Origin: Hormiphora californensis
Lineage: Eukaryota; Animalia; Ctenophora
DNA length: 64,000 bases
NCBI GenBank assembly: GCA_020137815.1
Contig: CM035350.1
Location: forward strand, 3,906,001 to 3,970,000
Direction: 5' to 3'
This document shows positions 10,174 to 53,532 of the stretch, in pieces. The notes below the pieces were generated by a model. The model saw only the letters and a program-made list of their open reading frames with translations. It was not told where the DNA came from and searched no databases. The position numbers and the translations under genes were made by a program. Numbering within the stretch: position 1 is the stretch's first letter; every line of letters begins with the position of its first letter.

Positions 10174-13100
10174 ATGTCGGCGGCTGCATTATACAGCAAG
10201 ATCGGAATTGTACCAGCTGAACCCGTGGTTCCAACGGACAAACAAAGTAGAAAGCGGGCCAAAAAGTCCACAACTCAGCCTTCAAAAAAGAAGAAAGGTA
10301 TCCAAAAGAAAATCAAATCTCATACAGACAAGGAAAACGGCTCTACCAACAAACCTATCGTAGCACCTGCTGAAGAATCTAAAACTGATAAAACAACAGC
10401 AGAGAACTCGCTCCCCGAGGAAAATACTACTTCTAAACCTTGTGATGAAGGAGCAAGGAATCAACCAGATCCCCCAGTACTAGTAGACACTTTGATAGGG
10501 TCCACTGCTACTATTTTAAGCACCCTTAACTCTGATGATTGTGTAAAGGAAGCGGATCAGTTATTTAGATGGTTGATAAGCCCTATATCCTCCCAAAGTG
10601 TTCTTTAAAGATTACTGGGAAAAGGAACATCTTTTAATCCAGAGGAAAGATAAAAACTACAATAGTGGCTGGTTTTCTACTGACAAACTGAAAGAAATTC
10701 TTCGAAATGTAAGTTTTTTTGGTAACTAAATATCTGAAATCATGACACATTTGATAATAGCGATTATAACGAAACAGTTAGATTAAACCAATTCGTACCC
10801 ATCTCTCTCTCCCCACAGGCCACACGATATCAAAACCCCCCATTCCCCTCAGAATCCAGTGCAGTTTCGGTACTCCCCCACATGATATCAAAACCCCCCA
10901 TTCCCCTCAGAATCCAGTGCAGTTCGGTACTCCCCCACACGATATCAAAACCCCCATTCCCCTCAGAATCCAGTGCAGTTTGGTACTCCTCCACACGATA
11001 TCAATACCCCCCATTCCCCGCAGAATCCAGTGCAGTTCGGCACTCCCCCACACGATATCAAAACCCCCCATTCCCCTCAGAATCCAGTGCAGTTTGGTAC
11101 TCACCCACACGATATCAAAACCCCCCATTCCCCTCAGAATCCAGTGCAGTTCGGTACTCCCCCACACGATATACAACCCCCCATTCCCCTCAGAATTCAG
11201 TGCAGTTCGGTACTCCCCACATGATATCAAAACCCCCCATTCCAATTAAAGAGAAACAACGATTTTGCAGTACTAATATTCAATTAAGAACAGGAGCTTT
11301 CGACTGATCTATGTCAGACGTCTTCAGCTATAACAACAATGAAAATGAAAGTGTTTATGTAGTGGAGAAGAGGATATGGGATCCGGGGAGGGGAGGAGAG
11401 AGGAAGGGATGAGATCCGAGAAGGAAGATGCGATCCGAGAGGAGGGGATGGGGGAGGTGATCCACGGGAAGGGAGAAGAGGTGATCCGAGCTGAAGAGAA
11501 TTAGGAAACAGGTTTGGGAGATCTAGGTTTGATGAAGATGCCAGCAGGACGGGGTTTGAAGGAGTTAGCAATCCTGGGGAGAAGGTGAGTCCATTGGAGG
11601 TTGACAGTAGGAACTTTATCTGTTCGGTTAATCGCCGGTTGAAGAGTGTGAATAGCCGCTTGTTCCAGTAGATTTAGACTGAGGCAGGAGGAAGAAGAGG
11701 AGAGGATAGAGGTAGAATTCCAGTCCATGGTGTGTCCAGATTCCCGAGCGTGGATAGCAGGAGCAGATTTCATCTTCCCATCGGTGTTGTAGAGAGAGTT
11801 GTTGTAGAAGTTTGATTCGTGCTCCTTAATCCGAGTTTTAACAGGTCGCTTGGTCTGGCCAACGTAGAAAGATGGGCAGTCGCGGCAGGGAATGGAGTAG
11901 ATGGAGTTGGGAGTACTATCAGAAGGAGGCGAAGATTTGGTCTGGGTGAGGATGTTCCGTAGGGTAGAAGAGGAAGAGAAGGTGACGTCTATGTTGTAGC
12001 GGTTGAGGGTCCGTTTGAGTCGAGAGGAGAGGTCCGGGTGATAGGGTAGGACTACACGGTGGACGAAGGAAGAAGGAGGACGGGATTTTGACGGTTTGGG
12101 GTGTAGAAGGCGGTCCCGAACAGTAGACATCAGAGTGGAGATCTCGTAGGGAGGAAATCCATTGCAGAGACAGATGTTGTAGACTGTGTCGAGTTCCCCT
12201 CAGAATCCAGTGCAGTTCGGTACTCCCCCACACGATATACAACCCCCCATTCCCCTCAGAATTCAGTGCAGTTCGGTACTCCCCCACACGATATACAACC
12301 CCCCATTCCCCTCAGAATCCAGTGCAGTTCGGTACTCCCCCATACGATATCAAAACCCCCATTCCCCTCAGAATCCAGTGCAGTTTGGTACTCCCCACAT
12401 GATATCAATACCCCCATTCCCCTCAGAATCCAGTGCAGTTTGGTACTCCCCACACGATATCAATACCCCCCATTCCCCTCAGAATCCAGTGCAGTTCGGC
12501 ACTCCCCCACACGATATCAAAACCCCCCATTCCCCTCAGAATCCAGTGCAGTTCGGTACTGCCCCACACGATATCAAAACCCCCCATTCCCCTCAGAATC
12601 CAGTGCAGTTCGGTACACACCCACACGATATCAAAACCCCCCATTCCCCTCAGAATCCAGTGCAGTTCGGTACACACCCACACGATATCAAAACCCCCCA
12701 TTCCCCTCAGAATCCAGTGCAGTTCGGTACTCCCCCACACGATATCAAAACCCCCCATTCCCCTCAGAATCCAGTGCAGTTTGGTACTCACCCACACGAT
12801 ATCAAAACCCCCATTCCCCTCAGAATCCAGTGCAGTTTGGTACTCCCCCACATGATATCAAAACCCCCCATTCCCATCTCAGAATCCAGTGCAGTTCGGT
12901 ACTCCCCACATGATATCAATACCCCCCATTCCCCTCAGAAACCAGTGCAGTTCGGTACTCCCCCACACGATATCAAAACCCCCCATTCCCCTCAGAATCC
13001 AGTGCAGTTTGGCACTCACCTGGATCTGACATCATACCAGGACGGGAAGAGAGAAACACACAACCAGCCAGGTAGGGCCTATCCTGGTATTGTGTGGAAG

Positions 13101-51800: not shown

Positions 51801-53532
51801 GGTGTCAAGACGAGGGGTAGAGGGTTTCAAGACGAGGGGTAGAGGGTGTCAAGACGAGGGGTAGAGGGTGTCAAGACGAGAGGTAGAGGGTGTCAAGACG
51901 AGGGTGTCAAGACGAGGGTGTCAAGTTTAGGGACGTGGAAAAACAGATGAGATTACAAATTAGATTGAGGGAAAAGATGCCACATCATAATAACACGAAG
52001 TGGTCTATTCTCTAAACCATCTGGTACCTGTTCTCATGGCTCCTTCTTCTCTCTCGTTTCCTTTGTTCCGACCTGCGAAGGATAGGGATTAGAACGAGCT
52101 TTGTCCTCCTTATTATTAGTTGAATGTTTTATAAGGGAGGTCCTTAGTTGAATGTTTTATAAGAGAGCTAGCTGGACTGAGTACATGTTGGTGAGCTGGA
52201 GGAGATGGAATCCAGGTGTGTGCTTGTGTGTGTGGAGCTTGTAGACCTTATAAAAGTCTCCCTACCGCCCCAACTACAATTATCTCCATCTCTCTGTCTC
52301 TCTCTCTCTGCTTCTCTATCTTTATCTCTCTCTCTTCTTCTCTCAACCTCTATCTCTGCTTCAAGACACGGGAAAAGTGAGGTGCTAGCTCAGCTGGTAC
52401 CCTCCACACACCTCCAACAAGCGAGATTTATAGCACCTATAATTATTAAATTTCGAGAGTTTTCTAAATCTCGATGATCGATCTCCTCTCTAAAAGTAAC
52501 AAATATCGAAATAGGATTTGTGCCAATATTTCACCAGGTACCAGGTGCTGTCCTATCTCACTTTAGTGGATCATGATATCTCACCCCCCCCCCCTATCTA
52601 AAAACTAAGTCACTCACTTGCTCTCAGAAGAGTGTTCACTATTGGGAGGGGAGGGATAGATCCGTAACGGTACAATCTCACCACCTAAACAAAAAGGAAA
52701 TGTTAAAATGTTGCAGTAGTCAAAACAATGCCAGCTGTTATCCGTACTGGATGACACCATGTCAATAATGGGGGAAAGTGTTATTTTCACTATTAAATAC
52801 AGAGGAAGTGTTATTTTCACTATTATCAACTGAAGGGGGAAGTGGTATTGAGAATGGGGGCTATAAGTACCTGTCAAAAGAGAATCCTCGCTTTGCAGCC
52901 AGGCTGATATTTCATCCTTGTTGATTCCAACACCGGAAACGTCGTGTGCTGACATTGATACGATCTGGAGAGAGAGAGAGAGGGTGGGGTGGATGGCAGT
53001 GAAATTAGGAAGTGTCCCAATAATTTAATTAAATAGTCACAAAGACAAGGAAATACACTCTGTCTAGGTCTACATCGTGAATCGCGATTACCTTGCTAGA
53101 CCCGCAAAGAAGAGTTAGAACTTAACAACTACTGTATCATCACTAAGGCAATTAATACCGTGGACATGTCATGAACATCTCATGAACACTAATGTGTTTT
53201 CGGACCTTCAGTGACGATTTATAAAACACTCCCTAATAAGGTGTGCCCTAAGCGACCCCTACTTCGTTCAATACCTCAGTTCCAGGTGGTGGTGGTTCAT
53301 CATCCAGTTCATCCAGGTCATCTTCCTGGTCATCACCTGCTGTGACAGCAAGGTCAGCTAACTCATCAAAATCTTCATACAAATCTTCCTTTACTTGATC
53401 ATCTTCATCTTCTGCTTCTTCCTCTTCATCGTCTCCTAGATCTTCTACATCAACAATGGAATCATCTTCTTTCTGAACTTCTTCCTTGTCTGATGTTGGT
53501 GATTCTTCACAATTCACTGGTGATGATGTCAT
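48829..53532 (-). CDS. RS-rich, coiled-coil, RRM-containing protein (putative splicing or RNA-binding factor), multi-exon
   Basis: Acidic first exon, RRASP/RRSP repeats (50572-51125), E/R coiled coil, RRM-like IFVQHF..DLYDHFRNYGTIIDV..SACIIF. Confidence 0.65.
51127..51925 (-). repeat. 22-bp minisatellite (~35 copies) abutting a 3' splice site
   Basis: Plus-strand unit GACGAGGGGTAGAGGGTGTCAA; on the minus strand the last copy ends CCCCTATCAG at the exon boundary. Confidence 0.95.

What the first reader, a model, noticed from the sequence alone, without database searches (positions are those of the whole stretch)
10819..51925. Recurrent splice-acceptor minisatellites: introns expanded by tandem copies of their own 3' splice region
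Seen: in four unrelated genes the intronic tandem repeat is a copy of the local branch point/pyrimidine tract, usually with the AG and first exon bases, and the last copy is the real acceptor. Cases are RIOX1 (57 bp), gelsolin (two arrays), DnaJ (27 bp) and the RS/RRM gene (22 bp and ~25 bp). The units share no sequence, so this is not a transposon family. Inference: a process targeted to 3' splice sites (slippage on C-rich or G4-forming tracts, or splicing-coupled repair), together with a spliceosome that ignores or ratchets through dozens of decoy acceptors.
Basis: partly seen in the sequence, partly recalled or inferred. Interest (0 to 1): 0.88.

Follow-up and report, generated by a model that had tools for sequence, protein, structure and literature searches.

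The report
Comb-jelly splice-acceptor "mirage" minisatellites
In four genes of what is likely a comb jelly, the end of an intron has been copied head-to-tail 4 to 77 times, and the two junctions seen in RNA use only the last copy; this kind of repeat is already known from lancelets as a "mirage", and the open point is whether C-rich intron ends are what likely makes these copies multiply.

Summary
Observation largely confirmed. Five of 45 scored introns end in a tandem array made of their own 3' end: RIOX1 (57 bp, 22 copies), gelsolin (4), DnaJ (35/36 bp, not 27; about 77 copies), and two in the RS/RRM gene (22 bp without AG; 25/32 bp). Short-read DNA contigs hold three of the arrays, with other alleles, so those are real and polymorphic. 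RNA contigs show the last copy used at gelsolin (two studies) and at RS-25 (one contig, weak). The kind is known: amphioxus "mirages" and human donor-side VNTRs. This scan has also met it in annelids, urchins, a clam and placozoans. A splicing-targeted process is not shown. Small duplications also occur at donors (2) and inside introns (12), and 5 acceptors versus 2 donors is not significant. What is skewed is expansion: acceptor arrays span 115-2,756 bp, all others 108 bp or less, and they are rich in C-runs. Best reading: random local duplication, expansion likely favoured by G-runs on the template strand, and exon-side choice of the last acceptor. Ratcheting is possible only at DnaJ. No genome was held, so enrichment is untested. 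New member of a known kind.

The parts
10819..11243 (+). RIOX1/NO66 intron 1 (10709-12995): upstream half of the 57-bp acceptor array, 7 decoy AGs
11244..12193 (-). GIY-YIG (Penelope-like) retroelement fragment inserted into the array; TTCC on both sides
   Evidence: PF01541, E=0.0016, below cut-off; 'Penelope' is a recalled label
12194..13017 (+). RIOX1 downstream half of the array, 14 decoy AGs; real acceptor 12995|12996
20955..21387 (+). Gelsolin upstream array, 33-36 bp unit with CTAAC, C-tract and TATAG, ahead of the first coding exon (5'-UTR or trans-splice acceptor); error-rich sequence
   Evidence: real acceptor not determined
21630..22402 (+). Garbled (CT)n microsatellite abutting a gelsolin acceptor
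   Evidence: X5 loose end (CT)n at 22403
22590..22836 (+). Gelsolin intron 22526-22820: 3 decoy acceptors with 15-16 nt exon stubs; real acceptor 22820|22821
   Evidence: RNA contigs of X7 and X10 skip 295 nt GT..AG; DNA X5 holds a differently ordered array
42498..45251 (+). DnaJ intron 42347-45244: 35/36-bp array, about 77 units (CTAAC, C-tract, YAG, 5-7 nt exon stub); real acceptor 45244|45245
42860..44562 (+). Higher-order block duplication inside the DnaJ array (shift 1002 bp, 700/701 identical): recent unequal exchange or assembly duplication
48947..49060 (-). RS/RRM last intron (49096-48960): 25/32-bp array, 3 decoy acceptors; real acceptor 48960|48959
   Evidence: two haplotypes in X1, present in X5, one X10 RNA contig joins the last copy
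51131..51928 (-). RS/RRM intron 52027-51126: 22-bp array (about 36 copies) of branch-point-like motif and tract, no AG
   Evidence: units in X5 DNA contigs
18638..18710 (+). Counter-example: donor-spanning duplication (exon end + GT, donor 18656) in a small gene
16189..16220 (+). Counter-example: 11-bp duplication starting at an RTRAF-like gene's donor

Best explanation
These are locus-specific 'mirage' minisatellites: short tandem duplications of an intron's 3' end, which likely arise at random, likely expand when the unit carries C-runs, and are likely tolerated because splicing picks the last acceptor, the only one followed by a whole exon. Step 1 (seeds shown, mechanism inferred): 10-100 bp tandem duplications occur all through this genome's introns, by slippage or microhomology-mediated repair. 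Step 2 (correlation shown, cause inferred): this animal's pyrimidine tracts are often C-runs. Once duplicated they give G-run arrays on the template strand that are predicted to form G-quadruplexes, stall replication and drive unequal exchange, so acceptor seeds grow into long polymorphic arrays while AT-rich seeds stay at 2-5 copies. Step 3 (outcome seen in 2 of 5 cases, mechanism inferred): upstream copies become intronic. The last copy wins through cross-exon recognition, helped by being the best-scoring site in 3 of 4 arrays, and nonsense-mediated decay would remove mis-spliced DnaJ RNA. No function is needed.
For: Seeds everywhere: 17 of 45 introns carry a near-tandem duplication; blocks are 5 acceptor, 2 donor, 12 host-interior, plus the upstream RIOX1 half and one block inside the inserted element. 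Acceptor blocks span 115-2,756 bp, all others 28-108 bp; span versus |G4Hunter| rho=0.60, p=0.004, n=21 blocks. The 5 array-bearing acceptors are richer in C-runs than 40 ordinary ones (p=0.0013; C fraction 0.51 vs 0.30; donors 0.16). Template-strand G4Hunter is 0.86-2.05 for the six arrays and -0.24 to 0.25 for four other repeats. G4-dependent minisatellite instability is shown for CEB1 in yeast (PMC2673046 abstract). Turnover: two RS-25 haplotypes in X1, a reordered gelsolin array in X5, and a 1002-bp block duplication. Last copy used: X7 and X10 gelsolin joint, X10 RS-25. Same anatomy as amphioxus BflGb6 (PMC3087553 passages).
Against: One window, picked because it looked striking; n=5. C-runs may have grown inside the arrays after duplication, which would make the correlation circular. 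RIOX1 has no canonical four-G3-run motif with loops up to 12 nt. 5 of 40 ordinary acceptors and 4 of 45 donors are as G4-prone (|G4H| at least 0.9) without a long array, and ordinary acceptors do not differ from donors in |G4H| (p=0.18). The RNA comes from metatranscriptomes of other animals whose array alleles are unknown, and contigs drop rare isoforms. The RIOX1 and DnaJ arrays were not tested with reads. Most introns are hand-annotated. In RIOX1, 15 of 21 decoys score at least as well as the real site, so site strength does not explain that case.
Confidence: 0.68

Rival explanations
1. No real acceptor bias: mirages form and grow at either end of introns, and this window is a chance cluster picked out by the scan.
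For: 5 acceptor vs 2 donor, one-sided p=0.23; 5 of 17 duplication-bearing introns at acceptors, p=0.02-0.15 depending on the zone size. Amphioxus has both 5' and 3' mirages and human cases are donor-side. An earlier scan note reports donors hit as often as acceptors in another invertebrate (e1-7908560; unchecked).
Against: All five long arrays touch an acceptor and none a donor (5:0, one-sided p=0.03). Uniform placement gives p=1.4e-4 for at least 5 of 6 arrays with 4 or more copies (post hoc choice of arrays). A sixth array sits at the gelsolin upstream acceptor region.
Confidence: 0.2
2. A splicing-coupled mutational process (breaks or RNA-templated repair where the spliceosome sits at the branch point/3' splice site) makes duplications specifically at acceptors.
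For: All long arrays include the branch-point/tract region and end at or just past the AG. At the loosest setting, 7 acceptor-zone versus 2 donor-zone duplications.
Against: Seeds are mostly interior (12 of 19 host blocks). Units keep intron sequence, with no sign of spliced-RNA templates. The G-runs lie on the template strand only, the wrong strand for co-transcriptional G-loops (recalled knowledge). Composition offers a simpler account.
Confidence: 0.06
3. The decoys are functional: recursive (ratchet) splicing, or regulated use that tunes expression through nonsense-mediated decay or adds in-frame peptides.
For: DnaJ units read YAG|GT. All 67 DnaJ decoys lead to a stop or a frameshift, while 3 of 3 gelsolin decoys and 9 of 21 RIOX1 decoys keep an open frame. 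Decoys score like real acceptors.
Against: Only 1 of 4 AG-bearing arrays has AG|GT, and its hexamers are not among 46 donors. No joint to a decoy was listed in X7 or X10 (contigs cannot show absence). Arrays differ between haplotypes. Frame outcomes are inconsistent across arrays.
Confidence: 0.04
4. The long arrays (RIOX1, DnaJ) are assembly artefacts or inflated by mis-assembly.
For: The window has garbled stretches (about 21400-22460 and 25640-28500) and homopolymer frameshifts. The DnaJ array holds a 700/701-identical block.
Against: Three other arrays are in independent short-read contigs. RIOX1 and DnaJ units show structured variant types, and the RIOX1 array carries a retroelement insertion. 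At most the DnaJ length is in doubt.
Confidence: 0.02

Closest known systems
Amphioxus 'mirage' minisatellites (Adh3, globins BflGb6/BflGb9, troponin C, PGBD5). PMC3087553 passages; PMC3902484 passages; Canestro et al. 2002 not held, known only through these citations
   Same: Locus-specific tandem copies of an intron/exon boundary; BflGb6 = 3' end of intron + start of exon; units of 10-160 bp; copy number differs between haplotypes; normal splicing is kept; terminal unit differs from internal ones.
   Different: Here a probable ctenophore; denser (5 of 45 introns); up to about 77 copies against 2-7 in the passages read; long arrays all on the acceptor side and C-run-rich; one array stops short of the AG.
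Human donor-spanning VNTRs (F7 intron 7, IFI6/6-16, CBS intron 13, LMNB2, PDGF). PMC1557585 passages and Discussion
   Same: Identical pseudo-sites next to the authentic site stay mostly silent; the site used is the one bordering the full exon.
   Different: Donor side; the paper explains the choice by oriented scanning. Here the acceptor used is the farthest from the upstream donor, which simple first-AG scanning would not predict.
G4-forming unstable minisatellite CEB1. PMC2673046 abstract only
   Same: G-run-rich tandem units whose instability depends on G4 potential (predicted here).
   Different: CEB1 is not derived from a splice site; G4 formation was not tested here.
Recursive splicing ratchet points (recalled, no call)
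   Same: DnaJ unit reads YAG|GT.
   Different: Three other AG-bearing units lack GT; introns are short; no intermediate was seen.

Membership tests
Mirage minisatellites | Tandem repeat whose unit spans an intron/exon boundary of the host gene | tested here: met
   RIOX1, gelsolin, DnaJ and RS-25; also the donor-side case at 18638-18710
Mirage minisatellites | Same feature, for the RS 22-bp array | tested here: not met
   Unit has no AG and no exon bases: a branch-point/tract minisatellite, mirage-like only
Mirage minisatellites | Locus-specific unit, not a dispersed family | tested here: met
   No meaningful match elsewhere in the 64-kb window; the rest of the genome was not available
Mirage minisatellites | Length or structure polymorphism between haplotypes | tested here: met
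   RS-25: contigs of 142 and 131 nt over the same span in X1; gelsolin array reordered in X5. Not tested for RIOX1 or DnaJ
Mirage minisatellites | Regular splicing is kept; the authentic terminal site is used | tested here: met
   Gelsolin in X7 and X10; RS-25 in one X10 contig. Presence only; RNA is from other animals
Mirage minisatellites | Somatic instability (reported for Adh3) | not testable with these tools
   Needs single-molecule typing within one animal
Recursive splicing (ratchet points) | AG directly followed by a usable 5' splice site | tested here: not met
   No GT after the AG in RIOX1, gelsolin or RS-25; DnaJ hexamers absent from 46 donors
Recursive splicing (ratchet points) | Splicing intermediates or lariats at the internal sites | not testable with these tools
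   Only contigs were offered
G4-driven unstable minisatellites | G4-forming potential of the unit | tested here: inconclusive
   High G4Hunter for all six arrays; canonical motif in five, none in RIOX1; prediction only
Transposon-derived repeat / introner | Shared unit or terminal repeats across loci | tested here: not met
   Units are unrelated and each matches its own splice region

The most novel reading that the evidence does not exclude
In this ctenophore about one intron in ten has amplified its own acceptor, genome-wide and on the acceptor side, because a C-run type of polypyrimidine tract is itself a G-quadruplex mutational hot spot. The splice signal would drive intron growth, and an animal with roughly 190-nt introns would still choose acceptors from the exon side, giving thousands of natural competing-acceptor experiments.
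Probability: 0.3. Interest if true: 0.65.

Novelty: new member of a known kind. Interest (0 to 1): 0.36.

Why it matters
As single cases mirages are known and probably harmless. The value here is the density and the one-sided expansion. If both hold genome-wide, they would link the composition of a splice signal to repeat instability and intron growth, and extend mirages to ctenophores. They would also give a large natural test of 3' splice-site choice: in gelsolin a good-looking, in-frame acceptor 154 nt from the donor is passed over for one at 295 nt. Practically, such arrays mislead gene prediction (in-frame 19-residue repeats in RIOX1) and break assemblies.

Tried and rejected
No whole genome is held, so no genome-wide test was possible. 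The metagenome scan for the RIOX1 exon start gave 2 loci, identical to each other around the match and with no BLAST similarity to the window at E 1e-3: chance matches. Run X18 gave 2 contigs under 90% alike: a paralogue or another species, not used. X5's summed depth of 117,532 at the 22-bp unit is a sum over many contigs and was not read as a copy number. No decoy joint in contigs is not proof of absence. A '3n unit length' idea was rejected: DnaJ units carry an in-frame stop, and RS-25 is not 3n. One intron of the 28900-30050 gene was dropped (donor not locatable, 47 to 46), and the garbled gelsolin intron was dropped from scoring (46 to 45). One search had two misplaced donors; they were corrected and the scan repeated with the same 5:2. 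Seven first-exon (possible trans-splice) acceptors showed no duplication. Literature searches listed no paper on ctenophore mirages or on a genome-wide acceptor/donor comparison; subscription journals are mostly missing. PMC12783039 passages were not relevant. Searches were seen as listings only. No supplements were read; those of PMC3087553 (mirage alignments) may bear on copy numbers. Scan look-ups by place, by sequence and for an enrichment test returned nothing.
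Full report
Setting. The window is gene-dense animal DNA. No whole genome is held. A 44-nt stretch at 40937-40894 (minus strand) is identical to the trans-spliced leader printed for the ctenophore Hormiphora californensis (PMC8527503, passages), so the animal is likely a pleurobrachiid-type comb jelly. That paper reports 13% tandem repeats and many indels in non-coding DNA, and the passages I read do not mention splice-site repeats. I annotated 47 introns in 10 genes by hand and dropped one whose donor lies in garbled sequence. 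The 46 left have a median length of 187 nt. One more garbled intron was left out of scoring (n=45). Only six joints, plus one partial, are confirmed by RNA contigs. Gene identities: JmjC, gelsolin, DnaJ and 7tm_1 Pfam matches (DnaJ below cut-off on a 33-aa exon) and NO66 structures. The RRM, NOP58 and RTRAF labels are recalled.

Observation. The arrays are there. RIOX1 has a 57-bp unit (33 nt intron end + 24 nt exon stub) with 22 acceptor copies, interrupted by a GIY-YIG retroelement fragment. Exon 1 ends at NO66 residue 78 and the exon after the last copy starts at residue 79, so only the last copy gives a collinear protein. DnaJ has a 35/36-bp unit, not 27, in about 77 copies, 68 with AG. 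The RS/RRM gene has a 22-bp unit without AG (about 36 copies) and a 25/32-bp unit with AG (4 copies). Gelsolin has 4 acceptor copies at 22590-22836, an upstream array in error-rich sequence whose real acceptor cannot be fixed, and a garbled (CT)n at another acceptor. Units match nothing meaningful elsewhere in the window. Duplications touching an acceptor occur in 5 of 45 introns against 0.13 in local shuffles.

Real or artefact. Only Logan contigs exist (18 runs listed, 5 laid). For gelsolin, DNA run X5 (a different sample and study from the best holders) shows joints that go back and skip within the array, with other letters between, so the array is present in another order. For RS-25, X1 has two contigs over 48978-49119, one identical (142 nt) and one of 131 nt, and X5 holds the array as well. 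X5 also holds the 22-bp units. Three arrays are thus real, and two are polymorphic. The DnaJ array contains a block 700/701 identical at a shift of 1002 bp, either recent unequal exchange or an assembly duplication, so its length is uncertain.

Splicing. RNA contigs of two studies (X7, X10) skip 295 nt GT..AG to the last gelsolin copy; no joint to the three decoys is listed. One X10 contig joins the last RS-25 copy to the upstream exon, but with only about 10 nt of that exon before adapter sequence. These are metatranscriptomes of other animals, and contigs drop rare forms, so decoy use is not measured. A weight matrix from 40 ordinary acceptors (leave-one-out median 8.6 bits) scores decoys like real sites. 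In RIOX1 the decoy median is 10.7 and the real site 10.7, with 15 of 21 at least as good. In DnaJ the decoy median is 8.7 and the real site 11.8. In gelsolin the decoys score -6.5, 9.7 and 14.2 against 16.4. In RS-25 they score 15.6, 12.5 and 15.6 against 15.7. Decoy use would keep an open frame in 9 of 21 RIOX1 and 3 of 3 gelsolin cases, and in 0 of 67 DnaJ and 0 of 3 RS-25 cases; RIOX1 counts are blurred by homopolymer errors. Decay of mis-spliced RNA therefore cannot explain gelsolin, and site strength cannot explain RIOX1. Recognition across the exon, where only the last copy is followed by a whole exon and a donor, is my inference (exon definition; recalled, and discussed in PMC1557585). 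Ratcheting needs AG|GT; only DnaJ has it, with hexamers absent from the 46 donors.

Is there an acceptor bias? A uniform scan finds near-tandem duplications in 17 of 45 introns: 5 at acceptors, 2 at donors, 10 interior only. As blocks there are 21: 5 acceptor, 2 donor and 14 interior, of which one is the upstream RIOX1 half and one lies in the inserted element. Acceptor versus donor is 5:2 (one-sided p=0.23), or 5:0 for long arrays (p=0.03). Five of 17 at acceptors gives p=0.02-0.15. At least 5 of 6 arrays with 4 or more copies gives p=1.4e-4 under uniform placement, but those arrays and this window were chosen after seeing them. So seeding is not shown to be targeted. Expansion is skewed: acceptor blocks span 115-2,756 bp, the others 28-108 bp. 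Array-bearing acceptors are richer in C-runs than ordinary ones (p=0.0013), and all six arrays have G-runs on the template strand only (G4Hunter 0.86-2.05 against about 0 for four control repeats). Against this: RIOX1 has no canonical motif; 5 of 40 ordinary acceptors and 4 of 45 donors are as G4-prone without long arrays; ordinary acceptors and donors do not differ in |G4H| (p=0.18); and C-runs may have grown after duplication.

Mechanism. I commit, at about 0.68, to random local duplication, followed by composition-favoured expansion through replication stalling and unequal exchange, and neutral tolerance because the last acceptor is chosen from the exon side. Shown: anatomy, polymorphism of two arrays, last-copy junctions in two cases, and the composition correlation. 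Inferred: G4 formation (by analogy to CEB1, PMC2673046 abstract), the expansion route, exon definition and neutrality.

Comparison. [quoted passage not shown] Four of the five arrays meet that definition; the 22-bp array lacks the boundary. Human VNTRs give donor-side cases (PMC1557585). The name 'mirage' came to me from earlier scan notes, which record the same kind in annelids, sea urchins, a clam, placozoans and a chimaera, one with about 105 copies. One note reports no acceptor preference in its genome. These notes are unchecked. My literature searches listed no ctenophore case and no genome-wide acceptor/donor test; the original Adh3 paper was not held.

Verdict. A real feature, a new member of a known kind, interest 0.36. 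The density and one-sided expansion deserve a genome-wide count. If they hold and track C-run content, interest would be about 0.65.

Noticed in passing
window 40937-40894 (-): Exact copy of the ctenophore spliced-leader exon directly ahead of a 329-aa ORF (39883-40872, ORF1-like, no Pfam hit) of a decayed LINE-like element; followed by CAG, not GT. Suggests retrotransposition of a trans-spliced transcript.
   Followed up: partly
window 7679-8731: Perfect 332-bp tandem repeat x3.2, each unit holding a tRNA-like stretch; not run through ARAGORN.
   Followed up: no
window 24305-25284 (+): Rhodopsin-family GPCR gene (PF00001) nested on the same strand in the 1574-nt gelsolin intron. The frame break near 24975 is likely an assembly error: X5 lacks single bases at 24944, 24975 and 25092.
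   Followed up: partly
window RIOX1 arrays 10853-12995: Most RIOX1 copies read GGT-ACT where the real exon reads GGC-ACT, creating a donor-like GT 16 nt after each decoy AG (a frameshifting microexon if used).
   Followed up: no
window 17110-18300: Element with long inverted ends, each holding a 13-bp repeat x10 (MITE/foldback-like), between two genes.
   Followed up: no
window 35024-38518 (-): Intact 1164-aa non-LTR reverse-transcriptase ORF inside a nest of repeated elements (33570-41600).
   Followed up: no
window 58232-58430: Duplicated acceptor-like segment (pyrimidine tract, CAG and about 40 nt) at about 138-bp spacing, outside any gene I annotated.
   Followed up: no
window 25477-25497: 11-bp duplication of the branch-point region 14 nt before a gelsolin acceptor: a possible AT-rich seed that has not expanded.
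   Followed up: partly
window about 21400-22460, 25640-28500, 29800-30500: Unpolished, homopolymer-inflated sequence; single-base frameshifts also in RIOX1 exon 1 (near 10595) and the RTRAF-like gene.
   Followed up: partly
window 19969-20095 and 20457-20515: Long (CT)n microsatellites ending just before AG dinucleotides upstream of gelsolin; (CT)n also abuts acceptors at 22403 and 52965.
   Followed up: partly
window 47250-48390: Element with long inverted arms between the DnaJ and RS/RRM 3' ends.
   Followed up: no
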